Of a DNA stretch of 64,000 nt, positions 1,849 through 52,857 are shown piece by piece; positions within the stretch are counted from its first letter, which is position 1; every line of letters starts with the position of its first letter. The notes under the pieces were generated by a model, which ran no database searches, was not told the DNA's origin, and saw only the letters and a list, made by a program, of their open reading frames with translations. Location of the stretch: the IMG/VR virus record IMGVR_UViG_3300045988_171839, positions 1 through 64,000 of that record, one strand, 5' to 3'. The stretch comes from a virus. Position numbers and translations under genes: made by a program.

Positions 1849-2015
1849 GTTTCACTCCTTCGGGACTAAGCCCCCTAAAGTATTTTGGAAGAGACGTTTT
1901 TTCGAGAACGTCGCTAAAAACTCGTTATCAACCTTCAAATAAAATGAAGATTTTATTATTCCAACACAGAATCCCCTAATAAATGGGGAATCTGTGTGAA
2001 ATAAGTTAAAATACA

Positions 2016-5000
2016 TTAAGAATGTCTTGTGAGATTACGTGCGGCTTGAAGTTGTCGCACAAAGTCATCCATATCAAACCCAGGTTGAGCAACCATATGA
2101 ACATCCAGATGTTCAACATTAAACGATTCGTCGGTTCCGAACCCTGTTGTGTGACTGAACTTGCCATTGATGTCCACAAGTTGTTTAATCAGGTTAGGAG
2201 CAACCTCGCCCAGTTGCCATACGTTGCGCGTAAGGTCGGCGGGAACAACTCCAGACTTAGACGGAAGAGCCGTCAAAGTGCCCTGAGGAGTAATGACGCC
2301 TTCCAGGCCATATTGAGGATCATCGTTGACAAGAGAGAGGCCACCGGCGGTAGATAGAGTGCCTGTTGCGTAGGAGTCACCACGAAATGTTGATTTTTTG
2401 GTTGAATTCCAACCTTCTAACGCCAGTGCGGTCTCTGGATTTGCTGCGTAAGAAGAACTATCATAAAAGGGCAAACCCGTAAATGAATCATCAACCCCTT
2501 GAGTTTTTTGGTAATCATCCTTCCGCAAAGAGGCTTTATATATAATTCCGTCGTAATTCCAAAACAACTGCTTCGTTCCTTTTGTCTCGCCAAAAATTAA
2601 CCCACTGTACTTAGGTTCTCTTAAGTCTTTATTGTGTTCAATATGAAACATACGCGACACGTTCGCCCACTTCCCTCCATTTAAAAGCACATAGGTTTCC
2701 GAAGGTTTTGCAGCCAAAAACCCCGCATCGTTTGTAGAATTTGGTTGCCAAGTGGTATACACACTTGATACATTATTATAGAGCCCATGATCAAACCTTG
2801 CTCCTCGTACAGGCGCCAAACGAACCGTTTCTCGGTTGAGTATTTCATCAAGTTTTTGCACCGCAGTTCCTTTATCGTCTGTTGTAAGCCCCAGTTCTTT
2901 TACCAATTCTTCTTTGGAACCACCAGCTTGTAAATATGCGTCAGCCTGTGTCTTAAATTTCGACAGATTGTCATTGTACGCTGCGACTTGTCGGACGGCG
3001 CCTACTGTATAATCTTGTTGTGATGCTGGTGCTTCAGTAATGCCTGCTTCAAAAGCTCCCTTGGCAGCACCCAAGGCTTCAATGCGTTTGTCCGAGATAT
3101 TTTTTAAATAATCCTCTGTCTTCTTGCCGTCGGAGCCTGTTTGAGTTGTATCAAGGTTTAGTCGTTGAATTTTAGTATAAGCCTCAGCAAAATAATGCAA
3201 CGCCTGTGCCTGTCCGGTGTTACTAATACCTATTTCCTTTTGCCAACTTTCATAAACCTTTTTTAAGCCCTCAAGCTCTTGGGTACTGGCAATGTCCCCA
3301 AGATATTCGCGCTGTGCCTGCAGTTCATCAATTTGAGTTTGTAATTCGTTAATTTTTTTCTCATTGTCCAAATCTTCCAACTCTTTTTGAGCATCTGCGA
3401 TTGCGGCAGTATCTGCTTCGTAAACCCAACCAACGCCTTCTCTCCACACTTTCTTCTTTTCGTTTTGAGCGTTCTCAAGTTTGATTTTAGCCTCAATAAG
3501 TTTATTTTCATATTCCCGTTGACTGTTGATTTGCTCTAGTGCAGATTTTTGTTCTTCTAGTGCGTTAATTTGTTTTTCATAAGATTTATCCAAATACTTG
3601 TTGACACTTTCAAGTTTCTTAGAATTATCTAGCTGTTCAGCTAAAGCTGTAGCTATAGCCTCATGTTTCTGCATACCTTCTATAATCTTGTTTTTTACGG
3701 CATTTAAAACAGCCTCGTTCTCGTCATCGGCGTTGAGCAGGAGCTCGATGCGCTGAAGCATTTGTTCAGGAGTACTAAGTTCGCCAAAATACCTTTTGTC
3801 AGTAAATAAGCCTTCATATTTACCATTTTGGTAACTCTTGAGAAAATCACGTACGTAAATCTCGGCATTTTTTTCGTTTTTTGCCCAATCGTTTAAAGAG
3901 TTTCTTATATGCAACTCTTTCACACCCGCCGTTATTTGGTTAATGTGGTCGACAATCTTACTAGGATCTGAAATGAAATCAACATATTCGGGATAATTAG
4001 AAATAATTTTTTCCTGAGCATCTAAATCTAAATACCCCGTTTCATAATAACTGTCTAGAATGCCGTACAACCCGTTGAGCATTTCACGTAACTGAGAAGA
4101 GGATTTAACCAAATCAGATAATTTAAGCGCCCCCAGTTGCTTCGACATCTCTTCAAGACGCGTCGTTGACACTCCCAAAGCCGACGCGAAAGATTCTATC
4201 ACGTTGGCATTTTTGTCCTTATCCTGTAAAGCCTCAGAAAGCGTTAAAACAGAACCGTGCAGTAGCTCCTGCATTCTGTCAGATTTACGCAATTGATCGG
4301 TGATATACTTTGTGGCCTCGTCTGTTACATTCCCTTTCGAGTCATAAAGAGCAAACGACTTGGGCGTAAGTTCCAATTTTTCAAATTGCGCAGCAACTTG
4401 TTTGATCGCATCGTCAAGATTTGTTTGAGACAATTGACGAAGTGACATTTGTTCAAGACCAGATGTAATAAACGCTTGTTTAATATACTCTTTGTCTAAT
4501 GTCCGCCAATAAACTCTCTGTTCCTCTGCTGACATATTTGATAGCGCTTTGGACTCTTGTGTTGTTTGCACTTTAGCCATACTTTGAGCCAAGTCAAACA
4601 CCTCTTGTGCTTTTTGACGAGTTTTTTCATCAGCAGCAGTCAACAATTCACGAATGCCTTCTATTGTCTGGAAATCTTCGCCCAAGTTCATCTTAACAGC
4701 CGCTTGTTTCAAATAATCATCAAAATCCAGCCCTTGCGCCGACATTTGTTCGTCGATAGAATTAACACTTTCTTTAATAGCTAAAATGGCCTCTGAAGTT
4801 AAATACTCTTTCTCGGTATAATCATGCACTTCATCAAATGTATTGTTTAATGAATTTAAAGCATCCAATTGTTTCTGAGCTGCTTCTGCACGTTGTTTAC
4901 GTTCGTTTTCTTCTTTATCAACCAATTTAGCAAAAACCGGTCCCAATATAGAACCCAAAGTGGAGCCTATAGCCGCACCCATTGGACCAAATAATGCACC

Positions 5001-8000
5001 AACACCTGTCAAAGCACCAGCTGTAATTCCAGCAGTTGCTTTCGCCCCTGCGGAACCTTCTTGGCTAAACCCAGTGGTTAATGCAGAGGTGACGCCGGCG
5101 CCAACCGCGCCTGCTACGTTCCCTTTAATGTGTGTGCCCAAAAGCGCTTTGGTTTGTTGCCGATCTTGGTAAAACATTTGTTTAATGTTTCGCACATCAT
5201 CAGTAGTGATGCTACCATTTCGTAAATCTTGACGAATTTTTGCCCTATTTGGGCGCCTAAAACGAGAACCTTTAGCATATTCGTCTATATTATGCCACTC
5301 GCCGACGTCATGCGAACCAATATACACTAAACGCCTGGGATCTACCACAGGCGTCTTCGATTGTACCGGAGAAGAGGTTGTAGACTGAACCGGTGAGCCT
5401 TTTATAGCACCCGTAAAACCACGTACTGCTATAGAGGCATCGTCCAGCGCCTTGGTGAGTGACGAAAGCGCGGTCTTGGGAGATGTTTTCCCTAGTAGCC
5501 TGTCAACATAAGTTTGGTTACTGCCCTCTTTCTTTTTATAAAATTCCTGTTGCCACTCTTGTCTTCTCAAGGCTTCTTGTTGTGTTTTTTGTGCAAAAAA
5601 TCCCAGAGAAGCCACAGGGGCCGTTTTACGTTGGTTTAAACTATATTTGATTTGTTCTGTTAGTTTAAACGAATTTCGCGCCCATAGCATAGAAGCAAGC
5701 GCGTTAAACCCAGGCACAACCATTTTGACTAGAATATTAGCCAACTTCGTGAAGGCAATAAGTAGTCCACTATCTTGTATTGATTTCGCCAAGCTTTGTA
5801 ATGACGTCTGCAAGTCGGCCTTTGCTGCCATCAATGTCTGTTCATAAGCAGCATATTTTGTGTCGGCAGTACCTCTGGATAAAGACGACACGTCTTCCAA
5901 CTCGTCAGCCCTATCTTTGTTTTCCATTAAAACCAAGAAAGATTCACGTTGACGAACACCAGCCATAGCAGTAGCAATCGCGTTTTTAGTAACAGAATCG
6001 TATTTTTGCCACTTTTCACTCAGTTCATCAATTACGTCTCCGAAATCTCTAAATTCTTGTGCGTTTTCGCGAATGCGTATTCCTACTTTGCCTAAAACTT
6101 TTTCAATATCGTTAACATTTTCTAAATCGGCATCGGAACTTTCTATACCCGTCATATTTGTGAAAGTCCCTGCTTTAACATTACCATAACGCGCTAAAAC
6201 CGTGCGCAAAGCCATACCCATAGAGGAAGGGTCTCGTTGGGTAACTTCAATCATGGTGGACAAGTAGCCAATTGTTTTATCAATGGATAACCCCGCTAGC
6301 TGAGCAGTTGTTGCAACGTTTTGCATTGCTGCAGCAATACCACCAGCGCTAACAGCTGCTTCCATATCGACAGCGGTTAACTTGTCAACAATATTAACTG
6401 CGTCGGCAGCCTCTAATTTGAAGCCCTTGATCATAGACGTCAAATAAGTTGTAGCTTGGCCGGCCTCAATCATACCTAATTTGCTCAAATATGTTGAAGC
6501 TTTGATCAGCTCGTTAGCCTGCCCTGCTTCATAACCTTGTCTAAGCCACTCGTTTGCCGAAGCAGCAATTTGAGTTGTGGTGGTGTGTAATTGTTGAGCA
6601 AGTTTACCATAATCATTAATTAATGATGAAACTTCTTGGCGACTGTCGCCACTGACAACTTGTAAGTTGAACATTGCAACATCAAGTTCATTCACCTGTT
6701 GCACAAGCTGACGCAAACCTTGCGTTATACGATTCAGAATACGATATACACCATTGTAATCGAACATTCTCGTAATGGTATTTTTAACACCACTTCCAAT
6801 AACATCTAACCAATTCCCGGCGCCCTTGGCCATTCCAGCAACCTTAAGCCTGTTTAATTCTCTCTTGGTTTGAAGTTGAGCATCAGCTTCGGCGGTTTCT
6901 GCCTGTGTCAATTTATTGTTTTCAACAAGCAGATTACGTTTTTCAACTAACTCTTTAAGTTCAGCCTTTAGTATATCAATTTGTCCTCTATCGGCTTGAA
7001 TTCCTCTTTCGAGTTTACTCGGTGTGGTTCTAGATTGTTTGTCCAAAACCAACATGTCCTTTTCCGTCTTAGCAATCTGATCGTTATAGCGTTTGTACTG
7101 GTTCAATACGGCTTCTCGTTGCTTTTGGGCAAGTAAGCGCTGTTTCTCATCATCTTTGAGAATTTTTTCATACCCAAAGTGTAAATCGCCCATCGCAACA
7201 GAATGATCGACCTCTTTCTTGGCAGAACTTGTGAATTCGTTCACCATGTCACTAGTTAAAGCCAATTCTTTAATTTTTTCTTTTCGAATCTTTTCGAAAG
7301 CTTTAATTTCCTCGACAAGATCTTGGTAGTATTTTGTGAGCTTCTTGAAGACTAACGAGTCATCTCCATATTGCCCTTTGGCCTTATCCAACTGTTCTTT
7401 AAGAGCCTGCTCTTCTGCAAGCTTCTTTTCATAATTAACACTTATCGTCCCAAAATCTTCTGCCCCAAAGGTTTCTCCAGTTGCCTTTTGATATTTCTTC
7501 TGGAAATCGGGACTCATTGTTTGCGTCAATTGCGGAGAGGCTGTAGCAGAATTACTTATGATTTTTTGTTCCTCTGCCGTTAATGACATTCCTTCTACTA
7601 ATTTTTGAGAAATATTTCTAGGAACATCCGCAATATTATAAACTTTGGTTTTCCCTTGATAACTTTGGACAAGTTGCGCACTAACATCCAACGATTGGTG
7701 TAATTGGCGTAATGTGGCTTCCGATAAGAGTGTCTGCTCGGTCATTTTTGTCAAAGCAGCCGTTTCTCCCTCTTTTCGCCATATCTCATCCAAATCTTGT
7801 TTAATGCGACGGTACATTTCAACATAAATCAGAACCTGCTCGATGCTCTTGGCTCCAAGTTTAGCCTCGTTTTTGAAGTCCACCACATTAAACATTTGAT
7901 AGTCGTTACCGTTTTCGGCCATACGCTTGCTTGTGTAGATGGCATCCGTCTTACCTTTTACAATAAAACTGTCTTCGTTTAAGCGTACTTTTTCTTCAGC

Positions 8001-11000
8001 TGCACGATACGCGTCTGTACCTGCAAGTCTGTTATAAGCACCATAATTACGTATAGCATATTCATTGGCAATAAGGGCATATTTTTCAACCTCTTGTTTG
8101 TCAAACAACATCGACATATTCTTTTTGAAGGCCTTCTTTGCCTCCATAAGAATCTCAGGATCATTTTTAATTTTACTTTCGGAAAAGGCGTGCGCGAGAG
8201 TCCCGATTAAAGTACCCACAACACTCTTCCTATCTTCTTTAAATTGCTCCAAATCGGTATAATCGAATTTTTTTGCCTTTTGTTCAAGACTAAGGCTGCC
8301 CCACCTGGTCTTAGAATCTTTAAATCCTATTATTTTCCCCTGCAGATAGCCTGCGGCAGATTCGTCCCCATAATAGGGATTTAAACTTGCCGCGATACCC
8401 GTTGGTGTCATATAGGTTTTTCCATAGCGTTCGTTAAGACCGCCTCGGCCTTGTTTAGCAAGCAAGTCTCGAATTTCTTCTAATATACTAACAATTTTAG
8501 GATCAAATCCTGTTTTGTTGCCCTTTTCCTCTGTAACTGTCAGTTTGTTGATGGCTTTGATAAGTTCTCCAGCTGCCGTGCCCAGTCCTGTTGGGCCGGT
8601 TTCTTCACGGAATCGTCCGTGTGCTTGTTTAGCTTTTGCCAAAAAGTCATCATCTAAATTACCACCAAACGCCTTTAATGTGCCTACACTAAAACCAAAT
8701 TGATTAAAAGCTCCGTTGTTCAGCGCATTAAGTAATAAAGATTTAAACTGGGCTTCATTACCTCTGAAACTTTCCCAATCCCGATATTTATCAATGGTTT
8801 GGGCAATAGCGTCCAAATCAGCTTTGACAATACCAGACTTTTCCAAAGCTTCGTACGCTGAAGCATTTTGGCTCATCGCTAAAGTGCCCAATATTCGTTG
8901 GGAACGCCAGGCCTCTAATTTGTTGTCTTTATAGATTCCTTGTTCCGCACCGGCTTGAATCACATCGTTCACATTTGCTTTATTTTTGTAAACTTCATCA
9001 ATAACTTTGTTAATCGCGATATTAAAAGACTTGTCAAGTTGCTCAGCGAACGTTTGTTCATCAACTTTGTCCAAATCGGAACCAAGCGTGGTTTGCATAT
9101 CTTGGATTGCAACGTCCCAAAGTTTCTTAGAAGAAATCGCATTTTGCTCAGCTTGTTCTAGTGCTTCAAAAACAAACGACCCCTTAATAAAGTCGATAGT
9201 TGAATTCAAATCTCCGCCTACAACAGCACCCGTACCCAACTTTTGTAACTCTAAAACATTTCGAGCACCTTTTGCAACGTTGGACCAGTTACCTGTTTTA
9301 TCTTTCGCCTGGTTTTGATAGGAACGCACTATTGCCATTTGCTTATCGTTTAACACTTGATTTTTCGCCAAATCAAGAATTACCGATGAGTCGGCGTCGG
9401 ATGAGGTAATAGCCGGAATGTTCTTTCCTATAACTCTATATAAAAATTCATTATAACGTTTGACTCTTTCCAAAGTTTCGTCTAACCAGCCAAACTGTTC
9501 GGGAGTAGCGTCGATCAGCTTGGCAGCCTGTCGAAGTTGAACTAACGCGGTGTATAATTTATCACCGTCAAAGTCCCCCATGATCAATTTGTTGAGACCA
9601 CGGTTACTTTCGATTACGTTTGTTCCTAGGCCCTCTTTACCAAAGACCAACCCTCCGTATTGTAAGTTAATGGCTTGGCTATAAGGCTGCCTCCCCAATA
9701 CAGCTTCAACACCGCGACTTAAAATAGGATTCGTGCCGCCATAAAAATTCTGATGTTCTTTGGTTCCCGTGGTAAAAATATTGGTCGCAAAATCGACCAT
9801 TTCGGCAAAATTCTTAAAGTTTTGATTGGCGAGAGCTGATTCGATAGCTTTGTCTTGCCCCTGTTCTGCAAAAAGTTGTAAATATTGAGCCAAGTTTTCT
9901 ACAAAGTCGTCGCTCTTGTAAGCGTTCAACCCAAGTGCGACACTTGCTCTAATATGTTCTTTATCGACATAGGTACCGCTATCCTTCATGCGTTCGCGCA
10001 AGGCGTCAACTTCATTCGCAGTATCTGTCGCTACAATATTGGTATTTTCGCCATAAAACGTAGAGTACGCTAAACGTTTCTTATATCTCTTATCATATCT
10101 CTCTTGAGCCGCTTGTCTTGCTTCTTCTTGGTTATGAGCCATTTTTGCCAAGAATTGCTCATTGACCGCCCCGCCAGTGTTTTCAAAGTTGTAAGCCTCT
10201 GCCTTTAAGACAGCGGTTAGCAAGTCTTTCTTTTCAGATGCTGATGCGCCCGCTTGAACTGCCATAAGCAAGTTTTCCAAGCTTTCGTTATAATCCCCAA
10301 TTTCATCAGTGTATTTGCCCAAATCGAGATATCGCGCTTCTCCCATATCCGCGCCCAAATCAACCAAAATTGTTGCCAGCTTTGCTTGAGTTTGGTCCAT
10401 AGATTGCAACTTCTCATCAAGTTTACCCCAAATGGTTTCATCTCTGTATTCGGGATTACTTTGTCCGTTGTCTAATTTCTCAGTGCGACGAAGTGTGTTT
10501 ATGTCAATAAAGTGTGCTTGATTGCCATACATGTCTCTCGAGCCAACAACGATTGTGTTAACACCCGCATTTCGATTGATATAATCAGGGTTTAACCCCG
10601 CTCGCGAACCTATTAGTTGAGCTTGACGCTCAATATGTTCATTATAGTCTCGTATACGTTTCTTTTTTTCTTCGATATCCTTTGCGGTTGCTCCAAAAGC
10701 GACAAGTTGGACAGTTTGTAAAAAATCACTATTCTCGGGGGTTATTTCCACACCGGCTGCGCGAGCCGAACGTTCAAGATCTTCTACTTCCCAGTTTGTT
10801 GGCAAGCTGGCCGCACCTCTTGGTTCATATTCACCATAACGTGCGCCAACAACATCAGTAAAGCTAGACGCAAGGGCCTTAGTTTGTAATTTCCCATCAA
10901 CAATTTCATATCCATTTTTTCCGCCCGTCAACTCATCTAACAGATATAAGGTTTCACCCGTAAATTTGGTACGAGCCGATACGTTTGAGCCCACGTACTT

Positions 11001-13361
11001 GTCCAAAGCATCGCTAAAGCTCAATTTTTTCAACAAAACGTCAACTAAGGCTTGTCCAATGTTGGTCGACAGGTTTGTGGTATCAAGGTTGTTCACACTG
11101 GCTTCAATTTGACTCTTATCTAGTTCATTTATCGCGTTGTCTATAGCCCGAGTTACAAGTGGTCCGATATTTCTTGAGCTGGTTTCCTCTCTTGCTGATA
11201 TTACCGTCGCCCGCGTCTTGTCGGGCGTTAATTCAACTCCCGTTATTGTCGAAATGGCTTTAATAAGTTCTTGACCTACCTCACGATATACGACACGCAG
11301 GTTGCCGTAGGCACTATTTGCTTTTGTGCCCGTATGTGCCCTTACTAGTTCTCTACCCGTTAAGGTCACATCTCCTGTCTCGGGATCAACATAGAGATCA
11401 ACCTTGCCTTTTGCGGCCTCTCGGCCTTCGGCAGCCAAAAGTTTTTTATAGGCGTCTTGTTTGGTTTGAGCACTTTTCTTTTTCTTACCCTCTAGCCCGT
11501 ATTTTGACAGGTCAGCTTTAGAAATTTTAACCGATACGCCCTCTCGAATTGTATCCAAATTCTCAATTTCATCTTTGGACACCAAGGCCATTCCATCAAC
11601 CAAACCCTCGATTAAGTCACGATTTTTATCAAGGAGTTTCGCCGCGTCTTGTTTCTCCTTGTCTGTGCTCGTAAGCAAATTACCAACTTGTTCAAACAAT
11701 CGGTTGATGTCAACCTCTATATTTTGTACACGTTCGGGTGGACCTTGTTTAGCATAAGCTTGGATATCGCGACCTTGTATTTTACGAGTTACGAGGGCCA
11801 TTTTGTCCTTCATTTCTTTGGCGCCCCACAGTCGATAATGGCCAGAATCTTCTTCGCTCATTGAACCAACAGAAGGTAGCCAAGAAAAGTTTTTATTAAA
11901 TTCTCGCATTACTGCGTCTGAGAGACCGTTTTTCATTTGTTGGTCTCGTAAACTCTTTTGTACGCCAATATCCCGCTCCCCAAATCCAGCAAAGCTAACA
12001 AACATTTTAGAAAACAATCTAACGAGCTCTGCTTCAGTAAGGGTAGAACCTTGCGCTTTCTCAAATTTTGCTAAACGTTTCGCCTCATTCTCAAAACGAG
12101 TTCTGCTTTCAACTAACGCTTTATCTGCGCCAACACCATACAAGTTGTCTTGTCGATCAAACTTTGAGGTTGATTTGTGAACAGTTTCGTCTTTGATGTC
12201 CCCAATACGTTTACGCGCACTTGCGATTGTTTTGGGAGCATGTTGAGACATCTCTACAAATTTTTGCGCCTCAGCATCCGATACTTTTACTCTCTTAGCT
12301 TGATCAACCACATAATCGTCATTTCGCTTATCTAAGCCCCCAACCGCAAAAGAAGCAGTGGCAGCATTTTGACGATTTACCTTTCCCGTTCTATCAAAAG
12401 CATTGACACTATTTTTATCATAAACAATAACTTTAATCTCTTGAGAACCCTTATCTCGAGCAAAACTGACGCCATATCCCGCCTTTTGCATATTAGCAGC
12501 ATATTCTGCTGCTTGTTTGGCACGCTTTTTGCCCTCTTCCGTAATTTTACGGGGATCGAAATATTTAAGAACTATAGCTTCTGCTTCTTTCTGCGTCGAG
12601 AAAGCGTTTTGTTGTATTTTTTCTGCGACCTTTGTTACTCTACGAGCACTACCACTAACGTCCTTGTTGGTTATCGTTGGATTGTAATCGGGATTTTTTT
12701 GTTGTTTGGCCTTTTTTGCCATATCTAAGAATTTGGCAATTTCTCTATTCACCGCTGGCGAGCCACTCGTGGATGAAAAGTCCGCTAAAGTGGTGTTAGC
12801 AAGTGCTTTCTTGGCTTTTTTAAATTGTTCACTGAGGTCAGTAGAATCTTTTAAAACCGATTTGTACTCTTTGTTAATTTGTTCAAAGATGGCTCTATAA
12901 CCAGCAGAATATTTATTTAAGTTATTTAAACCTAAACCCTGATTTATCTTCGCCATAGCCAAGCGGCCAATTTCATCATCGTTTAAGCTACCGATAATTT
13001 TATCCACCAACGGCAACACTAACGTTCGAGTAGCTTCGTGGACTACAGCGGGAGGCAATTTGGCCATCTGTGTTGACAAACTCGAAAAAGTGTCTTTAAG
13101 AGTTTTCCTTAATTCACCAGGAAATTGTTCAAAATTATCTCGAATCCAAGCAAGCGCCTTTTGTTGGGCTTGTGTGATTTTTTGTTGTTGAACTGCAGCC
13201 TCTAACTGTTTATCAGTTGTTGTTTTTAAAGCGTCTGTTAAATATGTGGCTGTCGTCCCTAAATTCTCTGCGGTAAGTTGCGAATCTTCGAGCATCGCAA
13301 TAATTGCACTATCAGCCGAACCAACGCTTGTTAAAATGGGAGTATAGTCCATTCCTTCCAT
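2016..13361 (-). CDS. Giant (3,781 aa) multidomain tail tape-measure protein
   Basis: Single uninterrupted 11.3-kb ORF. aa ~2215-2400 (nt 6162-6719) match the TP901-type tape-measure core as I recall it (LSKLGMIEAGQATTYLTSMIKGFKL...VDKLTAVDMEAAVSAGGIAAAMQ). There are Gly/Ala-rich hydrophobic segments (nt ~4950-5110) and long coiled coils. Extra N-terminal signatures are described in the findings. Confidence 0.85.
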   Translation of the reverse strand: MEGMDYTPILTSVGSADSAIIAMLEDSQLTAENLGTTATYLTDALKTTTDKQLEAAVQQQKITQAQQKALAWIRDNFEQFPGELRKTLKDTFSSLSTQMAKLPPAVVHEATRTLVLPLVDKIIGSLNDDEIGRLAMAKINQGLGLNNLNKYSAGYRAIFEQINKEYKSVLKDSTDLSEQFKKAKKALANTTLADFSSTSGSPAVNREIAKFLDMAKKAKQQKNPDYNPTITNKDVSGSARRVTKVAEKIQQNAFSTQKEAEAIVLKYFDPRKITEEGKKRAKQAAEYAANMQKAGYGVSFARDKGSQEIKVIVYDKNSVNAFDRTGKVNRQNAATASFAVGGLDKRNDDYVVDQAKRVKVSDAEAQKFVEMSQHAPKTIASARKRIGDIKDETVHKSTSKFDRQDNLYGVGADKALVESRTRFENEAKRLAKFEKAQGSTLTEAELVRLFSKMFVSFAGFGERDIGVQKSLRDQQMKNGLSDAVMREFNKNFSWLPSVGSMSEEDSGHYRLWGAKEMKDKMALVTRKIQGRDIQAYAKQGPPERVQNIEVDINRLFEQVGNLLTSTDKEKQDAAKLLDKNRDLIEGLVDGMALVSKDEIENLDTIREGVSVKISKADLSKYGLEGKKKKSAQTKQDAYKKLLAAEGREAAKGKVDLYVDPETGDVTLTGRELVRAHTGTKANSAYGNLRVVYREVGQELIKAISTITGVELTPDKTRATVISAREETSSRNIGPLVTRAIDNAINELDKSQIEASVNNLDTTNLSTNIGQALVDVLLKKLSFSDALDKYVGSNVSARTKFTGETLYLLDELTGGKNGYEIVDGKLQTKALASSFTDVVGARYGEYEPRGAASLPTNWEVEDLERSARAAGVEITPENSDFLQTVQLVAFGATAKDIEEKKKRIRDYNEHIERQAQLIGSRAGLNPDYINRNAGVNTIVVGSRDMYGNQAHFIDINTLRRTEKLDNGQSNPEYRDETIWGKLDEKLQSMDQTQAKLATILVDLGADMGEARYLDLGKYTDEIGDYNESLENLLMAVQAGASASEKKDLLTAVLKAEAYNFENTGGAVNEQFLAKMAHNQEEARQAAQERYDKRYKKRLAYSTFYGENTNIVATDTANEVDALRERMKDSGTYVDKEHIRASVALGLNAYKSDDFVENLAQYLQLFAEQGQDKAIESALANQNFKNFAEMVDFATNIFTTGTKEHQNFYGGTNPILSRGVEAVLGRQPYSQAINLQYGGLVFGKEGLGTNVIESNRGLNKLIMGDFDGDKLYTALVQLRQAAKLIDATPEQFGWLDETLERVKRYNEFLYRVIGKNIPAITSSDADSSVILDLAKNQVLNDKQMAIVRSYQNQAKDKTGNWSNVAKGARNVLELQKLGTGAVVGGDLNSTIDFIKGSFVFEALEQAEQNAISSKKLWDVAIQDMQTTLGSDLDKVDEQTFAEQLDKSFNIAINKVIDEVYKNKANVNDVIQAGAEQGIYKDNKLEAWRSQRILGTLAMSQNASAYEALEKSGIVKADLDAIAQTIDKYRDWESFRGNEAQFKSLLLNALNNGAFNQFGFSVGTLKAFGGNLDDDFLAKAKQAHGRFREETGPTGLGTAAGELIKAINKLTVTEEKGNKTGFDPKIVSILEEIRDLLAKQGRGGLNERYGKTYMTPTGIAASLNPYYGDESAAGYLQGKIIGFKDSKTRWGSLSLEQKAKKFDYTDLEQFKEDRKSVVGTLIGTLAHAFSESKIKNDPEILMEAKKAFKKNMSMLFDKQEVEKYALIANEYAIRNYGAYNRLAGTDAYRAAEEKVRLNEDSFIVKGKTDAIYTSKRMAENGNDYQMFNVVDFKNEAKLGAKSIEQVLIYVEMYRRIKQDLDEIWRKEGETAALTKMTEQTLLSEATLRQLHQSLDVSAQLVQSYQGKTKVYNIADVPRNISQKLVEGMSLTAEEQKIISNSATASPQLTQTMSPDFQKKYQKATGETFGAEDFGTISVNYEKKLAEEQALKEQLDKAKGQYGDDSLVFKKLTKYYQDLVEEIKAFEKIRKEKIKELALTSDMVNEFTSSAKKEVDHSVAMGDLHFGYEKILKDDEKQRLLAQKQREAVLNQYKRYNDQIAKTEKDMLVLDKQSRTTPSKLERGIQADRGQIDILKAELKELVEKRNLLVENNKLTQAETAEADAQLQTKRELNRLKVAGMAKGAGNWLDVIGSGVKNTITRMFDYNGVYRILNRITQGLRQLVQQVNELDVAMFNLQVVSGDSRQEVSSLINDYGKLAQQLHTTTTQIAASANEWLRQGYEAGQANELIKASTYLSKLGMIEAGQATTYLTSMIKGFKLEAADAVNIVDKLTAVDMEAAVSAGGIAAAMQNVATTAQLAGLSIDKTIGYLSTMIEVTQRDPSSMGMALRTVLARYGNVKAGTFTNMTGIESSDADLENVNDIEKVLGKVGIRIRENAQEFRDFGDVIDELSEKWQKYDSVTKNAIATAMAGVRQRESFLVLMENKDRADELEDVSSLSRGTADTKYAAYEQTLMAAKADLQTSLQSLAKSIQDSGLLIAFTKLANILVKMVVPGFNALASMLWARNSFKLTEQIKYSLNQRKTAPVASLGFFAQKTQQEALRRQEWQQEFYKKKEGSNQTYVDRLLGKTSPKTALSSLTKALDDASIAVRGFTGAIKGSPVQSTTSSPVQSKTPVVDPRRLVYIGSHDVGEWHNIDEYAKGSRFRRPNRAKIRQDLRNGSITTDDVRNIKQMFYQDRQQTKALLGTHIKGNVAGAVGAGVTSALTTGFSQEGSAGAKATAGITAGALTGVGALFGPMGAAIGSTLGSILGPVFAKLVDKEENERKQRAEAAQKQLDALNSLNNTFDEVHDYTEKEYLTSEAILAIKESVNSIDEQMSAQGLDFDDYLKQAAVKMNLGEDFQTIEGIRELLTAADEKTRQKAQEVFDLAQSMAKVQTTQESKALSNMSAEEQRVYWRTLDKEYIKQAFITSGLEQMSLRQLSQTNLDDAIKQVAAQFEKLELTPKSFALYDSKGNVTDEATKYITDQLRKSDRMQELLHGSVLTLSEALQDKDKNANVIESFASALGVSTTRLEEMSKQLGALKLSDLVKSSSQLREMLNGLYGILDSYYETGYLDLDAQEKIISNYPEYVDFISDPSKIVDHINQITAGVKELHIRNSLNDWAKNEKNAEIYVRDFLKSYQNGKYEGLFTDKRYFGELSTPEQMLQRIELLLNADDENEAVLNAVKNKIIEGMQKHEAIATALAEQLDNSKKLESVNKYLDKSYEKQINALEEQKSALEQINSQREYENKLIEAKIKLENAQNEKKKVWREGVGWVYEADTAAIADAQKELEDLDNEKKINELQTQIDELQAQREYLGDIASTQELEGLKKVYESWQKEIGISNTGQAQALHYFAEAYTKIQRLNLDTTQTGSDGKKTEDYLKNISDKRIEALGAAKGAFEAGITEAPASQQDYTVGAVRQVAAYNDNLSKFKTQADAYLQAGGSKEELVKELGLTTDDKGTAVQKLDEILNRETVRLAPVRGARFDHGLYNNVSSVYTTWQPNSTNDAGFLAAKPSETYVLLNGGKWANVSRMFHIEHNKDLREPKYSGLIFGETKGTKQLFWNYDGIIYKASLRKDDYQKTQGVDDSFTGLPFYDSSSYAANPETALALEGWNSTKKSTFRGDSYATGTLSTAGGLSLVNDDPQYGLEGVITPQGTLTALPSKSGVVPADLTRNVWQLGEVAPNLIKQLVDINGKFSHTTGFGTDESFNVEHLDVHMVAQPGFDMDDFVRQLQAARNLTRHS

Positions 13362-17153: not shown

Positions 17154-17262
17154 TCGGGCCTCCTTATCGTTTTCAAATTAAGCCGAAAATAAAAGCTTTA
17201 AGATCGTTTTCACTTAAAGCTCGACGGGGGTTGCCACACCCCGTCTATTGTTTAAGTTTATG
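16913..17262 (-). repeat. Direct repeat copy 1: fibre 5' leader, hairpin and first ~80 codons
   Basis: Alignable by eye, with scattered substitutions, to 19448-19797. It includes the SD, a ~65-nt leader and the hairpin GACGGGG-loop-CCCCGTC (17223-17245). Confidence 0.7.
17223..17245 (-). terminator. GC-rich hairpin upstream of the fibre gene (weak terminator or regulatory hairpin)
   Basis: The minus strand reads GACGGGGTGTGGCAACCCCCGTC followed by GAGCTTTAAG. The stem is about 8-9 bp and only a short U tract follows. It is conserved at 19757-19780. Confidence 0.35.
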
Positions 17263-17283
17263 TGTATTTATTGATGTTAATCA

Positions 17284-18918: not shown

Positions 18919-18929
18919 AACTCACCTCG

Positions 18930-19688: not shown

Positions 19689-19797
19689 TTGGGCCTCCTT
19701 TATCATTTTCAAATTAAGCCGAAATAGGGCTTTGAGATCTGTTTCACTCAAAGCTCGACGGGGGTTGCTACACCCCCGTCTATTATTTAAGTTTTTG
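19448..19797 (-). repeat. Direct repeat copy 2: fibre 5' leader, hairpin and first ~80 codons
   Basis: Alignable to 16913-17262. The hairpin GACGGGGGTGTAGCAACCCCCGTC lies at 19757-19780. Confidence 0.7.
19757..19780 (-). terminator. GC-rich hairpin upstream of the fibre gene (copy 2)
   Basis: 9-bp stem located immediately after the stop of the 19810-21501 gene. It is conserved with 17223-17245. Confidence 0.35.
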
Positions 19798-19809
19798 AGT
19801 TTAGAAAAA

Positions 19810-21501: not shown

Positions 21502-21522
21502 TGCTTTTATTCCTCCAAATTA

Positions 21523-23220: not shown

Positions 23221-23238
23221 AGTATATACCTCCCTCTA

Positions 23239-24504: not shown

Positions 24505-24530
24505 AAACTCTCCTTTTTGAAATAAGTTTG

Positions 24531-44355: not shown

Positions 44356-44937
44356 TTAACTCCTTGTCATCACCGATGTGCGCAGTACAGCTAAGAATTC
44401 TTGTAAGGAATAATCAAGAGCGAACAGCTCATCTTCATTTTCTCGCACGAACACCGGGAGTTTAAAACATAAGATCGGATTTTTACTACCAACCACCCTA
44501 AATTCTAATTTAAGCTTCACGGCCTGATGCACCAATTCTAAAAACTTCTTATGATCCTTCATCCCCAACAATTGCATAATTTGTGGTTCGTCATATTTGA
44601 TCCACCCTGAGTCGTGCCAATTTGTTTTAGCCACATATATTAACACCCCAAACAAAGCTCGAACTTCCTCATTACTAATATTTAATAAAAAGTTCCATTC
44701 GTCCTCGTAAACCACGAAAGTTGTTAATGTATTTTTGGTATCAAGAGGGGCTTTTAATAAACAGTCCACAATTTGTTCAAAACATTGGTTATTTAATTCA
44801 AACCCGCGTTCACACTCAAGGAGAAATTCTCGTATAGAGCCGTCGGTCATGCCTTCGGCTCTTAACGAATTAATGATTTTTACAACGCTGCTGCCTTTCT
44901 CGATCGATTTGTTACAAATTTGTTCTTCAACTGTCAT
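44356..44937 (-). CDS. Hypothetical protein
   Basis: Start moved to the ATG at 44937 after GGAGGAG. Confidence 0.4.
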   Translation of the reverse strand: MTVEEQICNKSIEKGSSVVKIINSLRAEGMTDGSIREFLLECERGFELNNQCFEQIVDCLLKAPLDTKNTLTTFVVYEDEWNFLLNISNEEVRALFGVLIYVAKTNWHDSGWIKYDEPQIMQLLGMKDHKKFLELVHQAVKLKLEFRVVGSKNPILCFKLPVFVRENEDELFALDYSLQEFLAVLRTSVMTRS

Positions 44938-47809
44938 AGTCACAATCTCCTCCAAATAAGTTATCAGCATCGAAGTCAAAATCTAAATCTTGCCCCAAAA
45001 TTTCTTCCCACGCCGCTTGATTCCAATCGTCATCATCACACAACTCGCTGACTCGATCTTCGTGAATTACTTGTAAAGTGTATCGATTACCAAGGTATTC
45101 AAATCCAACTTCGTTTTTCACGGGAATTTGGACAATTCCACGAGGGATTAAATCCAACACGCTTTCGTCTAAAATGTCCCAAGCAAAATCCCAATTAAAC
45201 TGTTTGTATTCTTTTGATAAACAATGGCAGTAGTAAAGCAATTCTTTGCCACTGAACGACGCAGACTCAATCGCCTCTTGAATTTCCGTTCTGATAAATG
45301 TCATTGCTCCGAATCTAATCTCATCATATTCGTCACGATTCGGTAAATCAATATTATCAACAATGCTCTCCAAGGTTTTTACTTGTTTACGCGCTGTATA
45401 TTTGCGATACAAATCTTTAACAATAGCAAACCGTTCTTGATCAAATTCAAAACAATCCTCAAAGGTGGGTAACATACTTACCGCGTTTTTGTTGAAATTA
45501 ATATCAAAATCGACATTTTCAAATTCCTTACACAATATATTCATTATGCACGGTGCGGTGATTAGTGGCGAATACTTTTGATAACGGCGTACCAAATTCA
45601 TCTCGTCTTCTGACTTATTGGGTTTGGTTAAAAGTTTTTTAAATTTAATACCAAACATATTTTTGGACGCCATATTGTAACTGTTTTCGTATTGCTTGAA
45701 CTGTTGGTTTAACTCTGGATATAAGTATCTAAAGAAATATGGTTTTTTAGAAATAACCATCGAGTTTCTTTTATATTTATCCGCCTTAACCGCATCAGTG
45801 TCATCATCATTAATTCGGATGAATTTCTTCCACTCTTTCGGCAACTCCGGCGCGGCTGTTCCTTTAATGCGATCAATTTCTTGACCAACAATTTCTCGAA
45901 GTAATTTAATACGCAAAGTGAGTTCGTCTCTTTGTTCTTTTTGGGTGTCTTTTTGGAAAATTCCCTTCATTGCGTGCATTATTGTTGCGCAGTTAGAAAA
46001 ACCTCCAACCCCAGTTCCCAAACCGCGAATATCGGTCGCGATTGAATTCTTTAAACAAATTTTCTGAACCGGCACCGCACCTTTCTCATATGTAATGACA
46101 TTATGCCATTTTTGCGCACCCTTGATAAAGATTTTATTGTCCGTGGACATTACTACGTCGCCGTCAAAATCACTGTCAGAATGTCGTAATGTTGAAGTAT
46201 CATATATACTGTAAATGATTCCACTCTTAATATATTGATACCAATAGTCCATATCTTCGGACGATACTACTTTACAAGGGTTGTGTTCGTGCGAGTCAAT
46301 CATCGGACTGCGGCACAGGTCAACACAATCCACGTTTCTCTGCCTCCAAAAATTTGAATACACTTGGTCGGGCCCAAGTAACCCTACCGGTTCCAACCCA
46401 AGCGCCGATTGACACTGTGCTACGGGATCAGAAATCATAAAACTATAATTTCCTCTCACCCATATCTTACCAATCTTCGCCTTGTTTATCGTCTCAGCAA
46501 TATTGCGATATATTTTCTTCTGTACATGAGCGTCTTCCAACATTATCGGGTTTTTAATAATCGCCCTCAACGCCGTGCTTTGCGCCCCATTATACAATTC
46601 TTTAAAACTGACTTGTTCACCCTTGCAACCCAACATATACAACATTGTATACAATTGGTCACCTGAGCAAATCTTTTTAATCCAATCAATCGTCGGTTGA
46701 ATCAATTCCAGAATATCATCCTTATTGATATCCAACACTTGCAGATATTGATAATTGGCCAGCACATATTCGTCATCGTACTTTTTATTATATCTCGCAA
46801 CTCCCCACTGAATACCAGCCGCATCTACATACTTTTGATATTCATACCAAGATACATAATATTTATACATCTTGAATTGAGATTCACTCAATATAACATC
46901 AATATCCTCCAACCTGTGTGAGATTCCCCACCGGTCACGAATTGAGTCAATACCGTGTGCAGCTCCAAATTCTCGAAAATCAAACGGAACCAAGCACCCC
47001 TTCACAAAAACGCTACGGACAACGAACGACGACGGCGTATATGATAAATTCATATCTTCTGCCCACAGAGCCGCAAACTTAGGATCTATCAATCCCTGTC
47101 CATCAGCGCAGTTTAACTCGATATCCATTATTCTTTCTTTAATCTGTTTTTTCCCAGTCTCGGGATTGGGGCAAATCCAATCAACCGATTGATCCTTCAC
47201 CACATTAAAGAAATCCTTAACCACGCATACTCTCGGGGTTCGCACCCACATAACACTTGAAAACGCCAACGCAAAATACGCATGATATTTCGCCAAATTC
47301 ATTTCTGAAATTTTGGTGTCCAACCCGCACATCAGGTTTTTGTACAAGGTGTCATAAAGAGCTTCGTTAATAAAGGTAATAGTGTTGCGCCTCATTTGTC
47401 CCGAGCCGCAACAAAACCTCACATAATGAATACCGTTAACGTCAAAACCATTCTTGGCTAATTCTTTATATTCTTTCTTGGTCACGACTTCAACGTTAAT
47501 AATATCTTTAACAAACAACGCATCTGTCAAAAACCGATTAAGAATACCAGCTTCCTTGGTTCGTCCCTCTCTCTTCGCTGCTCTTATAGCGCGACGAAAT
47601 TGTTGGACATCGTTAAAAATCTCTCGATGACTTCTGGTATCATTATAATATTTTCTGATTTGCTGAAAAACCAGATTATCACCAATTGATACCAGCGCCC
47701 CATCGCGAGCTGCCTTAGATTTTGAATAATTAACTATATTTAAGTTGTTCTCTACAATAAAACTAGATTTAAGTTTAAAAACTTGATATAGGTTTTGTAA
47801 ATTAGGCAC
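44927..47809 (-). CDS. Single-subunit two-barrel polymerase candidate (YonO / cellular-RdRP-like)
   Basis: 960 aa with a GTG start after GAGGAAG. Signatures: DSDFDGDVV (nt 46157-46171), CRSPMIDSHEH ~50 aa upstream (compare NRAPTLH...NADFDGD in beta-prime), and YVRFCCGSGQMRRNTITF (compare F.xFSxSQLR....W.F of RdRPs). Confidence 0.55.
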   Translation of the reverse strand: MPNLQNLYQVFKLKSSFIVENNLNIVNYSKSKAARDGALVSIGDNLVFQQIRKYYNDTRSHREIFNDVQQFRRAIRAAKREGRTKEAGILNRFLTDALFVKDIINVEVVTKKEYKELAKNGFDVNGIHYVRFCCGSGQMRRNTITFINEALYDTLYKNLMCGLDTKISEMNLAKYHAYFALAFSSVMWVRTPRVCVVKDFFNVVKDQSVDWICPNPETGKKQIKERIMDIELNCADGQGLIDPKFAALWAEDMNLSYTPSSFVVRSVFVKGCLVPFDFREFGAAHGIDSIRDRWGISHRLEDIDVILSESQFKMYKYYVSWYEYQKYVDAAGIQWGVARYNKKYDDEYVLANYQYLQVLDINKDDILELIQPTIDWIKKICSGDQLYTMLYMLGCKGEQVSFKELYNGAQSTALRAIIKNPIMLEDAHVQKKIYRNIAETINKAKIGKIWVRGNYSFMISDPVAQCQSALGLEPVGLLGPDQVYSNFWRQRNVDCVDLCRSPMIDSHEHNPCKVVSSEDMDYWYQYIKSGIIYSIYDTSTLRHSDSDFDGDVVMSTDNKIFIKGAQKWHNVITYEKGAVPVQKICLKNSIATDIRGLGTGVGGFSNCATIMHAMKGIFQKDTQKEQRDELTLRIKLLREIVGQEIDRIKGTAAPELPKEWKKFIRINDDDTDAVKADKYKRNSMVISKKPYFFRYLYPELNQQFKQYENSYNMASKNMFGIKFKKLLTKPNKSEDEMNLVRRYQKYSPLITAPCIMNILCKEFENVDFDINFNKNAVSMLPTFEDCFEFDQERFAIVKDLYRKYTARKQVKTLESIVDNIDLPNRDEYDEIRFGAMTFIRTEIQEAIESASFSGKELLYYCHCLSKEYKQFNWDFAWDILDESVLDLIPRGIVQIPVKNEVGFEYLGNRYTLQVIHEDRVSELCDDDDWNQAAWEEILGQDLDFDFDADNLFGGDCDYDS

Positions 47810-48931: not shown

Positions 48932-49005
48932 AATAATGTAGTTCCTTAGAAGTTATATAGATTCCTAAAGAAAGAGGATATTCTCTTTCTTCTTATTCTG
49001 TTTAT

Positions 49006-49121: not shown

Positions 49122-49123
49122 TT

Positions 49124-52856: not shown

Positions 52857-52857
52857 T

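What the first reader, a model, noticed from the sequence alone, without database searches (positions are those of the whole stretch)
2016..13361. Tape-measure protein fused to an RNA-polymerase-like double-psi-barrel signature and a RecB/Cas4-like nuclease signature
The 3,781-aa ORF has a recognisable TP901-type tape-measure core only at aa ~2215-2400 (nt 6162-6719). Upstream of that core, aa 1263-1267 read DFDGD (nt 9561-9575). This is the metal-binding signature of multisubunit RNAP beta-prime (NADFDGD) and of the YonO, crAss-like virion RNAP and QDE-1 two-barrel polymerase family. It is preceded ~40 aa earlier by LGRQPYS (compare NRAPTLH) and ~590 aa earlier by GRELVRAHTGTKA (nt 11319-11342; compare the beta-subunit GRHGNKG loop). 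By rough composition, a chance DFDGD in a protein of this size is improbable, and the window contains a second one in an unrelated ORF. Further on, aa ~1715-1855 (nt 7797-8219) read GTLAHAF...E..h....GKTDAIY...VVDFKNE...QVLIY. This follows the order of RecB/Cas4 PD-(D/E)xK motifs (G.hD, hhD.K, Q...Y). Tape measures are ejected with the DNA. An ejected tape measure carrying polymerase and nuclease modules would therefore parallel N4 vRNAP or crAss-like gp66 in a new architectural context.
Basis: partly seen in the sequence, partly recalled or inferred. Interest (0 to 1): 0.85.

Follow-up and report, generated by a model that had tools for sequence, protein, structure and literature searches.

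The report
Tape measure with nuclease, possible polymerase
A giant phage tail tape-measure protein carries a 1,950-residue enzyme-like N-terminal extension with a well-supported DNA-nuclease domain and a strongly conserved DFDGD block that may be an injected RNA polymerase, an arrangement already shown in Thermus phage P23-45 but not proven here.

Summary
All motifs are invariant in 12 homologues down to 34% identity.

- **Tape measure:** certain (TIGR01760 and PF10145, aa 2212-2548).
- **PD-(D/E)xK nuclease, aa ~1715-1855:** well supported. The orthologous domain in P0016 passes Pfam PDDEXK_1. It is not Cas4 proper, because the protein has no cysteine.
- **RNA-polymerase reading:** plausible but unproven.
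  - For: R-x-P lies 39 aa upstream of DFDGD, as in all nine bona fide two-barrel polymerases compared. This block is the most conserved stretch of the N-terminal extension. The flanks score p≈0.01.
  - Against or missing: no profile match, no identifiable second barrel, and two AlphaFold runs failed on the core.
- **The "unrelated" second DFDGD ORF (44927-47809):** a genuine YonO-type RNA polymerase.
- **Novelty:** the architecture is not new. P23-45 gp96 (Nat Commun 2024) is a tape measure fused to a virion polymerase, found through the same motif, in a phage that also has a second polymerase.

If real, this would be a sequence-orphan second lineage in SPbeta-like phages, with an added nuclease.

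The parts
2016..13361 (-). Giant tape-measure gene, 3,781 aa, one uninterrupted ORF with no cysteine
   Evidence: PHROG tape-measure families cover aa ~1930-3500
7512..13361 (-). N-terminal extension, aa 1-1950. It is conserved along its whole length but is a sequence orphan
   Evidence: Only 14 clusters in the 5.8-billion-protein set. Only 3 representatives among 1.84 billion for aa 560-1700. No Pfam, PHROG or NCBIfam hit in this region
9540..9722 (-). Candidate catalytic block, aa 1214-1274: VEAVLG-RQP-(36 aa)-DFDGD-KLYTALV. Putative second half of a beta-prime-type double-psi barrel
   Evidence: Most conserved 45-aa window of the extension. R.P lies at -39, as in 9 bona fide polymerases where it lies at -35 to -47. 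Flank position-specific score p≈0.009. The fold is not confirmed
9561..9575 (-). DFDGD, aa 1263-1267, candidate metal-binding triad
   Evidence: invariant in all homologues
11289..11357 (-). Conserved block GxELVxAxxGTKxNSxxxNLRxV, aa 669-691. Unassigned
   Evidence: G-T-K is invariant but H676 is not. No K-G strand signature as in the known second barrels. The adjacent aa 604-673 fold as a small alpha/beta unit at pLDDT 70-86
7797..8219 (-). PD-(D/E)xK nuclease domain, aa 1715-1855: GTLAHAxxE / GKxDAxY / D-x-K / QxxxY
   Evidence: Motif residues are invariant. The P0016 orthologous domain hits PF12705 PDDEXK_1 with E 2.2e-8. The window's own copy is sub-threshold to DUF2800, E 0.012
5718..6728 (-). 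TP901-type tape-measure core, aa 2212-2548
   Evidence: TIGR01760 E 2e-27; PF10145 aa 2253-2468, E 2e-26
6543..6554 (-). Codons NEWL (aa 2270-2273). In relatives a group I intron is inserted here. The window carries the intron-less allele
   Evidence: Rfam RF00028, 83 bits, in L014 at 10896-11180. Exon junction alignment. Most homologues' called ORFs end '...ANEWLN*'
4920..5771 (-). Hydrophobic and glycine-rich membrane-like segments of the tape-measure part, aa 2531-2561 and 2760-2814
   Evidence: Hydropathy scan
44927..47809 (-). Separate YonO-type single-subunit two-barrel RNA polymerase, 960 aa, DFDGD at aa 547. Candidate non-virion polymerase of the same phage
   Evidence: Pfam RdRP PF05183 E 1e-11. 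tblastn to SPbeta yonO, 28% identity, E 6e-32. 771 homologues

Best explanation
The ORF is the tail tape-measure protein of a roughly 110-140 kb SPbeta-like siphophage, probably of gut Firmicutes.

Its C-terminal half (aa ~1950-3781) is the ordinary ruler and membrane-channel part. Its N-terminal 1,950 aa is an enzymatic cargo that leaves the tail with the tape measure at infection.

That cargo contains two elements:
- A Mg-dependent PD-(D/E)xK nuclease at aa ~1715-1855. This is shown at the sequence-family level.
- About 450 aa upstream, a catalytic-looking centre (hhhh-R-x-P, 36 aa, G-DFDGD-KLYTAL). I infer this is most likely the beta-prime-type barrel of a very divergent single-chain two-barrel RNA polymerase, analogous to the N-terminal virion polymerase of Thermus phage P23-45 gp96.

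On this model the injected polymerase would transcribe the first-entering genes at the entry pore. The separately encoded YonO-type polymerase would take over later.

Shown: tape-measure identity, nuclease motifs, motif conservation, presence of a second polymerase. Inferred: polymerase fold and activity, ejection, timing.
For: **Tape measure.**
- TIGR01760 and PF10145 and PHROG tape-measure families.
- The relative's locus has a YomU_Tube gene upstream in the same module.

**Nuclease.**
- PDDEXK_1 passes the Pfam cut-off in orthologue P0016.
- G-T-L-A-H, G-K-x-D, D-x-K and Q-x-x-x-Y are invariant.

**Polymerase.**
- DFDGD is invariant down to 34% identity.
- aa 1224-1268 is the most conserved window of the extension.
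- Each of nine bona fide polymerases from five families (gp96, gp64, beta-prime, phi14:2 gp66, YonO) has exactly one R.P 35-47 aa upstream of the triad. The tape measure has RQP at -39, preceded by a hydrophobic strand-like run and followed by K-h-h-h-h, as in gp66 and YonO.
- A flank position-specific score that excludes the triad gives z≈2.6: p≈0.009 against natural sequence and 0.028 against shuffled flanks. This is better than all four held-out YonO proteins.

**Precedent.** P23-45 gp96 was found through DFDGD alone, has no other detectable similarity to polymerases, is N-terminal in a tape measure, and is active. That phage also has a second polymerase (PMC10770324).

**Same genome.** It encodes a YonO-type polymerase.

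**Control.** Profile-profile comparison of two proven polymerase families (YonO against gp96) also finds nothing, so the negative profile results carry little weight.
Against: - No profile hit to any polymerase: Pfam, PHROGs and NCBIfam, PDB sequence profiles, hhalign against the YonO and gp96 families.
- Two AlphaFold2 runs gave pLDDT 22-44 over aa 1211-1263 and no barrel. The flanks were predicted helical at pLDDT 63-80.
- The flank score (z 2.1-2.7) is well below held-out gp96, gp64, gp66 and beta-prime (z 4-6).
- No conserved K-G strand of a second barrel, bridge helix or trigger loop could be assigned. An apparent GTGxVGGxxN match to the YonO bridge-helix region is not conserved in P0012 or P0016.
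- Canonical sigma-70-type promoters (12/12 and 11/12 matches) face both ways in the 48.9-49.9 kb intergenic region upstream of the early genes and of the YonO operon. An injected polymerase is therefore not obviously needed.
- The window's own nuclease copy does not itself reach a Pfam cut-off.
Confidence: 0.5

Rival explanations
1. The DFDGD block is the metal- or ligand-binding centre of some other ejected enzyme or module, not a nucleotide polymerase. Candidates are a second nuclease or phosphoesterase, a Toprim- or HAD-like acidic loop, a Ca-binding loop, or an ACT-like strand-turn-strand. It would work together with the PD-(D/E)xK nuclease to process host or phage DNA at entry, or to counter host defence.
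For: - No polymerase profile or fold hit.
- AlphaFold puts a helix directly after DFDGD at pLDDT 63-80.
- The best, non-significant PDB sequence match of the block in two searches is the small protein Atu0741 (1zhv). It aligns 50 residues including FDGD-hLL, with E 0.1.
- No second barrel was found.
- Host-type promoters precede the early genes.
Against: - No family of this kind was hit either. Pfam finds nothing at E<10 on the block.
- The candidate Toprim glutamate (E1216) is not conserved in P0012.
- HAD needs DxDG-T, and an EF-hand needs G at position 6 and E at position 12. Neither is present (sequence).
- R-x-P at -39 together with the strand-like flanks is specific to two-barrel polymerases in all nine controls.
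Confidence: 0.35
2. The N-terminal 1,950 aa is only extra ruler or structural tape-measure length, and both motif sets are chance or historical remnants without activity.
For: - The composition resembles the rest of the tape measure.
- AlphaFold predicts mostly helices at low confidence.
- In P23-45 the whole protein length matches the tail length (PMC10770324).
Against: - The expected chance DFDGD count is 0.0024.
- The motifs are invariant at 34% overall identity and sit in the most conserved blocks.
- An orthologue passes the Pfam PDDEXK_1 cut-off with all catalytic residues intact.
Confidence: 0.07
3. The ORF is an assembly or annotation artefact, for example two genes fused, or a frameshift-joined tape measure and upstream enzyme gene.
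For: Most database homologues are called as ~2,270-aa proteins, not 3,780 aa.
Against: - The truncations are explained by a group I intron (RF00028, 83 bits), or another inserted ORF, inside the tape-measure domain downstream of the extension.
- In all relatives the N-terminal extension and the start of the tape-measure domain lie in one ORF.
- P0015 is a 3,782-aa full-length homologue.
Confidence: 0.02

Closest known systems
Thermus phage P23-45 gp96 (tape measure fused to virion RNA polymerase; Chaban et al., Nat Commun 2024, PMC10770324)
   Same: - Giant tape measure: 5,002 aa there, 3,781 aa here.
- The enzyme part is N-terminal to the tape-measure part.
- DFDGD with R-x-P 38-39 aa upstream.
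- Otherwise no detectable similarity to polymerases.
- The same genome encodes a second, separate two-barrel polymerase.
   Different: - No detectable sequence relationship to gp96 (hhalign E 0.03 over 38 columns; no tblastn cross-hit).
- DFDGD sits at aa 1263, not 779.
- A PD-(D/E)xK nuclease domain is present, while gp96's metallopeptidase was not found here.
- The second polymerase is YonO-type rather than gp64-type.
- The host is inferred to be a mesophilic Firmicute.
- Activity and fold are unproven here.
crAss-like phage phi14:2 gp66 and N4 gp50 (virion polymerases embedded in large ejected proteins)
   Same: Both are polymerases carried in the virion as part of a very large protein. gp66 has R-I-P at -39 and K-M-Y-V-M-L after its DFDID triad, which is very like RQP at -39 and K-L-Y-T-A-L here.
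   Different: They are internal proteins of podovirus-type virions, not tape measures. N4 gp50 is T7-like rather than two-barrel (from established knowledge). There is no sequence similarity to either.
YonO of Bacillus prophage SPbeta (single-subunit two-barrel polymerase)
   Same: The window's other DFDGD ORF (44927-47809) is a true member. The tape-measure block shares only the RxP...DFDGD signature with it.
   Different: hhalign of the tape-measure extension against the YonO family aligns only 11-12 columns around DFDGD, with probability <4%. RxP spacing is 43-47 in YonO and 39 here.
PD-(D/E)xK nucleases of the PDDEXK_1 / DUF2800 / RecB-AddB-Cas4 group
   Same: Motif order is G..H..E, G.xD, hhD.K, Q...Y. 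The orthologue is above the Pfam cut-off.
   Different: It is embedded inside a tape measure. It has no Fe-S cysteine cluster, and indeed no cysteine at all. The window's own copy is too divergent to reach a cut-off.
Tape measures with enzymatic add-ons (lysozyme, peptidase or Rpf-type motifs; from established knowledge)
   Same: The principle is the same: a tape measure carrying catalytic modules that act at entry.
   Different: Those known add-ons act on the cell wall. This one would act on nucleic acid.

Membership tests
Phage tail tape-measure protein (TP901 / PhageMin_Tail type) | Match to the family profile above the curated cut-off | tested here: met
   TIGR01760, 96 bits against cut-off 28.8, aa 2212-2548. 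PF10145, 93.6 bits against cut-off 33.2.
Phage tail tape-measure protein (TP901 / PhageMin_Tail type) | Located in the tail module of a long-tailed phage | tested here: met
   Terminase, portal and fibre-like genes lie upstream on the same strand. The relative L006 has YomU_Tube in the same module.
Phage tail tape-measure protein (TP901 / PhageMin_Tail type) | Protein length sets tail length | not testable with these tools
   Needs electron microscopy of virions.
Two-barrel RNA polymerase | DxDGD metal-binding triad, conserved | tested here: met
   DFDGD aa 1263-1267 is invariant in 13 sequences.
Two-barrel RNA polymerase | R-x-P 35-47 aa upstream of the triad, after a hydrophobic strand | tested here: met
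   VEAVLG-RQP at -39. All 9 controls have exactly one R.P at -35 to -47.
Two-barrel RNA polymerase | Double-psi beta-barrel fold around the triad | tested here: inconclusive
   Two AlphaFold2 runs gave pLDDT 22-44 in the core. Foldseek was uninformative.
Two-barrel RNA polymerase | Second (beta-like) barrel with a K-G strand, upstream in the same chain | tested here: inconclusive
   No conserved K-G-hhhh strand could be assigned. The candidates at aa 304, 589-612 and 669-691 fit only partly.
Two-barrel RNA polymerase | Bridge helix and trigger loop downstream of the triad | tested here: inconclusive
   Conserved blocks at aa 1349-1415 exist, but none matches the known motifs. The GTGxVGG resemblance to YonO is not conserved in the family.
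Two-barrel RNA polymerase | Profile similarity to a known polymerase family | tested here: not met
   Searches found none. The control pair YonO against gp96 also fails, so the feature is not discriminating.
Two-barrel RNA polymerase | Template-dependent RNA synthesis | not testable with these tools
   Needs biochemistry.
Tape-measure-fused virion polymerase system (P23-45 type) | Polymerase module N-terminal in the tape measure, plus a separate non-virion polymerase gene | tested here: inconclusive
   The candidate module is N-terminal and a YonO-type gene is present. The module's identity is unproven.
Tape-measure-fused virion polymerase system (P23-45 type) | A dedicated promoter class on the first-entering genes | tested here: inconclusive
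   Only host-type sigma-70-like promoters and an AT-rich repeat tract were seen at 48.9-49.9 kb. The window covers about half of the genome.
PD-(D/E)xK nuclease (PDDEXK_1 / RecB-like) | Ordered motifs G..H..E, G.xD, hhD.K, Q...Y with conserved catalytic D, D and K | tested here: met
   H1724, E1728, D1806, D1828, K1830, Q1842 and Y1846 are invariant.
PD-(D/E)xK nuclease (PDDEXK_1 / RecB-like) | Profile match above the curated cut-off | tested here: inconclusive
   Orthologue P0016 scores 30 bits against cut-off 22, E 2.2e-8 for the domain alone. The window's own domain has only DUF2800 at E 0.012, 15.3 bits against cut-off 21. No PDB sequence hit.
Cas4 proper | Four-cysteine Fe-S cluster | tested here: not met
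   There are no cysteines in the 3,781 aa.

The most novel reading that the evidence does not exclude
The N-terminal extension is an active, virion-delivered two-barrel RNA polymerase of a new, sequence-orphan family. It would have been fused to a tape measure independently of the Thermus phage lineage and coupled in the same chain to a PD-(D/E)xK nuclease. SPbeta-like gut phages would then inject both a transcription and a DNA-cutting activity through the tail, alongside an encoded YonO-type second polymerase.
Probability: 0.4. Interest if true: 0.75.

Novelty: new variant of a known kind. Interest (0 to 1): 0.58.

Why it matters
If the DFDGD block is a polymerase, tape-measure-fused virion polymerases are not a peculiarity of thermophilic Oshimavirus phages. 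They would be a recurrent solution that arose, or diverged beyond recognition, in mesophilic Firmicute phages of the gut.

That would add a further orphan family to the two-barrel polymerases. It would also give a tractable case of two polymerases dividing labour in one phage.

The nuclease in a tape measure stands on firmer evidence and is itself unusual. Known tape-measure add-ons attack the cell wall, not nucleic acid. It suggests DNA processing, or attack on host or defence DNA, right at the entry pore.

Tried and rejected
**Searches with no useful result**
1. megablast and tblastn of the extension against 50,697 phage records found no match.
2. BLASTP of aa 560-1700 against the window's YonO-type ORF found nothing.
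3. PDB sequence-profile searches with aa 560-1700, aa 1150-1320 and the nuclease domain found no polymerase or nuclease chain. The only recurrent weak hit was Atu0741/1zhv, E 0.1.
4. hhalign against the YonO family and the gp96 family aligned only the DFDGD neighbourhood.
5. AlphaFold2 on aa 600-1480 and on aa 1150-1320 both failed in the core.
6. A word-indexed search with the nuclease domain alone found one fragment.
7. A scan of GTDB genomes for a prophage copy found none.

**Ideas tested and dropped**
8. Bridge helix: LGTGAVVGGDLN against YonO LGTGVGGFSN has the same G-4-G-4-N spacing. I rejected it because G1382 and N1386 are not conserved in P0012 or P0016.
9. DG-x-A-LVS at aa 589 as the RdRP 'DGxGxIS' motif: rejected, because it is not conserved in P0016.
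10. Toprim, HAD and EF-hand readings of DFDGD: rejected on missing partner residues.
11. tRNA cluster idea for the repeats at 52.8-57 kb: ARAGORN finds no tRNA.
12. A group I intron in L006 at its split point: no Rfam hit there, unlike in L014.
Full report
**1. The observation**

The minus-strand ORF 2016..13361 encodes 3,781 aa.
- DFDGD: aa 1263-1267, nt 9561-9575.
- LGRQPYS: aa 1222-1228.
- GRELVRAHTGTKA: aa 669-681, nt 11319-11357.
- Four nuclease-like motifs at aa 1720, 1803, 1826 and 1842.

From the ORF's own composition the expected number of DFDGD is 0.0024. The six-frame translation of the window holds only one other DFDGD, at nt 46157-46171.

**2. What the ORF is**

Pfam PF10145 (aa 2253-2468, E 2e-26), NCBIfam TIGR01760 tape_meas_TP901 (aa 2212-2548) and eight PHROG tape-measure families covering aa ~1930-3500 show that the C-terminal half is a tape measure. 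That half also has hydrophobic, glycine-rich segments typical of such proteins.

The gene lies at the end of a leftward structural block. The block runs terminase 39235-40938, portal 36449-38401, six fibre-like genes, a tyrosine-recombinase-like gene, then this ORF. In a relative's contig the same module starts with a YomU_Tube protein, the SPbeta tail tube. IMG/VR relatives sit on 85-141 kb contigs, and none was found in GTDB genomes.

**3. The N-terminal 1,950 aa is a sequence orphan but strongly constrained**

- A search of 5.8 billion clusters found only 14 relatives.
- An exhaustive profile search of aa 560-1700 against 1.84 billion representatives found only three: P0015 (about the same sequence), P0012 at 53% and P0016 at 34%.
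- No Pfam, PHROG or NCBIfam family hits this part.
- tblastn against 50,697 phage records finds nothing.

Even so, the region aligns end to end in all relatives, with many invariant blocks.

Most relatives are called as ~2,270-aa proteins. This is not a different architecture. In L014 a group I intron (Rfam RF00028, 83 bits, E 4.5e-21) carrying a 538-aa ORF interrupts the gene right after ...ANEWL, and the exon resumes at GYEAG. In L006 a 335-aa ORF splits the gene further on. The window carries an intron-less allele.

**4. The nuclease**

The residues G1720-T-L-A-H1724...E1728, G1803-K-x-D1806, D1828-x-K1830 and Q1842...Y1846 are invariant in all 13 sequences.

In P0016 the same domain reads GTLAHAAQE / GKIDALY / VGDYKTG / QAQMY. 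It hits Pfam PDDEXK_1 at 30 bits against a cut-off of 22, and E 2.2e-8 when scanned alone. The window's own copy reaches only a sub-threshold match to DUF2800, E 0.012. DUF2800 is, to my knowledge, a phage PD-(D/E)xK family. PDB sequence profiles gave nothing.

The protein has no cysteine, so the Fe-S cluster of Cas4 is absent. I file the domain as a PD-(D/E)xK nuclease of the RecB/PDDEXK_1 kind, not as Cas4. I rate this about 0.85 likely.

**5. The polymerase question: negative or uninformative results**

- BLASTP against the window's own YonO-type protein found nothing.
- hhalign of the family profile against a 13-sequence YonO alignment aligned only 11-12 columns around DFDGD, probability <4%.
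- hhalign against a gp96-family alignment aligned 38 columns, E 0.03.
- PDB sequence profiles found no polymerase.
- Pfam on the isolated block found nothing.
- AlphaFold2 on aa 600-1480 gave mean pLDDT 47.5, with the core at 22-25. On aa 1150-1320 it gave mean 57, with the core at 28-44. Neither model shows a barrel, and the flanks are helical at pLDDT 63-80.

With only about three independent sequences in the alignment, these failures say little. As a control, the two proven polymerase families YonO and gp96 also show no hhalign similarity at all.

**6. The polymerase question: positive evidence**

I extracted the region around the triad from nine bona fide two-barrel polymerases of five families: P23-45 gp96 and TSP4 gp96, P23-45 gp64, E. 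coli beta-prime, phi14:2 gp66, and four YonO-type proteins.

- Each has exactly one R.P 35-47 residues upstream of the triad. The tape measure has RQP at -39, where gp66 has -39 and gp96 and gp64 have -38.
- The R is preceded by a hydrophobic run: VEAVLG here, against DIAFTF, PVLLN and RVIFN.
- At -15 to -11 there is a strand-like N-V-I-E-S, against N-A-V-V-V, D-S-V-I-A, D-T-I-V-A and K-A-I-Q-L.
- The triad is followed by K-L-Y-T-A-L, against K-M-Y-V-M-L in gp66 and K-A-L-I-I in YonO.

A position-specific score of these flanks, with the triad columns left out, puts the tape measure at z≈2.6. That is p≈0.009 against 13,545 natural positions in the window's ORFs, and 0.028 against 20,000 shuffles of its own flanks. 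In leave-one-family-out tests gp96, gp64, gp66 and beta-prime reach z 4-6, while the four YonO proteins reach only z 0.3-2.1. The tape measure therefore scores within the range of true polymerases, but at its weak end.

The 45-aa window aa 1224-1268 is the most conserved of the whole extension: 62% invariant columns against 21% overall, and 67% identity to P0016 against 32.5% overall. That is what one expects of an active site.

**7. What is missing for the polymerase reading**

I could not locate a second barrel. The structure-based alignment of Chaban et al. shows a K-G-hhhh strand in every known second barrel. The tape-measure family has no conserved counterpart at a credible distance.

It lies 580 aa upstream of DFDGD, where known enzymes have 200-310 aa. 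Candidate bridge-helix and trigger-loop matches did not survive the conservation check.

The intergenic region 48.9-49.9 kb, upstream of both the rightward early genes and the leftward operon that holds the YonO-type gene, contains canonical sigma-70-type promoters: 12/12 and 11/12 matches, 17-nt spacers. The host polymerase could therefore start the programme, as I recall it does in SPbeta.

**8. Comparison with what is known**

P23-45 gp96, a 5,002-aa tape measure, carries an active two-barrel virion polymerase at aa 327-1124. It was found only through DFDGD (aa 779-783) and has no other detectable similarity. It transcribes pre-early genes, including the gene for a second, non-virion polymerase, gp64 (PMC10770324).

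The present case parallels it in four respects: N-terminal placement, the same motif with the same R-x-P spacing, orphan sequence, and a second polymerase gene in the genome. The second DFDGD ORF at 44927-47809 matches Pfam RdRP at E 1e-11 and is 28% identical to SPbeta YonO, E 6e-32, with 771 homologues.

It differs in having no detectable relationship to gp96, a nuclease domain, a YonO-type partner, and a mesophilic, probably Firmicute host. The host is suggested by the nearest YonO-type hits, which come from Enterocloster, Thomasclavelia, Clostridium and Bacillus phages and human faecal samples. The survey table of that paper lists no tape-measure-type entry for such phages.

**9. Verdict**

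| Element | Assessment |
|---|---|
| Observation | Confirmed |
| Tape measure | Certain |
| Nuclease | About 0.85 |
| Polymerase | About 0.45-0.5, resting on motif-level evidence plus a strong precedent |
| Main rival | A different metal-dependent module, about 0.35 |

Novelty: a new variant of a known kind. Interest is moderate to high, because a single primer-extension assay or a confident structure would decide whether tape-measure-fused polymerases are widespread.

Noticed in passing
window 44927-47809 (-): The 960-aa ORF with the window's second DFDGD is a genuine YonO-type single-subunit two-barrel RNA polymerase (Pfam RdRP; 28% identity to SPbeta yonO; 771 homologues). It lies just downstream of a guanylate-kinase-like gene (47812-48360), near the start of the long leftward block of ORFs.
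   Followed up: yes
window 6543-6554 (-); L014 10896-13022; L006 17189-18460: Relatives carry a group I intron (RF00028, 83 bits) with a 538-aa ORF inserted in the tape-measure gene right after codons ...ANEWL. Another relative has a 335-aa ORF inserted about 120 codons further on, with no Rfam intron hit. The window has the uninterrupted allele.
   Followed up: yes
window 57808-57888 (+), 61746-61825 (+), 55461-55521 (+): Two strong twister-sister ribozyme matches (61.5 and 70.5 bits against a cut-off of 34) lie among the small rightward early genes. There is also a sub-threshold twister-P1-like match (30.6 bits, E 0.003).
   Followed up: partly
window 52848-57039 (+): Several unexplained repeated elements lie in the GC-richer early region. 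A 60-nt sequence repeats exactly at 53931 and 54699. A 34-nt sequence repeats exactly at 53008 and 53568. A 43-nt element occurs three times from 52848. A 77-nt hairpin-rich element sits at 56106 and 56963. No tRNA and no Rfam family was found for them.
   Followed up: partly
window 14074-15066 (-): A tyrosine-recombinase-like gene (Pfam Phage_integrase, E 1.5e-16) sits inside the tail module, between the fibre-like genes and the tape measure. It is conserved at the same place in relatives L006 and L014. Its role there is unknown. No long inverted repeats were seen between the fibre genes.
   Followed up: partly
window 15771-24534 (-): Five of the six fibre-like genes match tail or fibre PHROGs. 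Four of them share an N-terminal module (phrog_19976) and the paralogues contain direct-repeat blocks. The sixth, ORF 17284-18918, instead contains a run of 69-nt (23-aa) tandem repeats.
   Followed up: no
window 48932-49870: The divergent intergenic region has perfect or near-perfect sigma-70-type promoters in both directions. It also has an extremely AT-rich ~200-bp tract (49150-49350) made of degenerate repeats of TGTTAAATATATATTAAAATATAATA-like units. This could be a regulatory or replication element.
   Followed up: partly
window 2016-13361 (-): The 3,781-aa protein contains no cysteine at all.
   Followed up: yes
window aa 1612-1656 of the ORF (nt ~8394-8528, -): The second most conserved block of the extension is IVSILEEIRDLLxKQGRGxLNxxxGKxYxxPTGI, 53% invariant. 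It lies between the DFDGD block and the nuclease and has no recognisable family.
   Followed up: no
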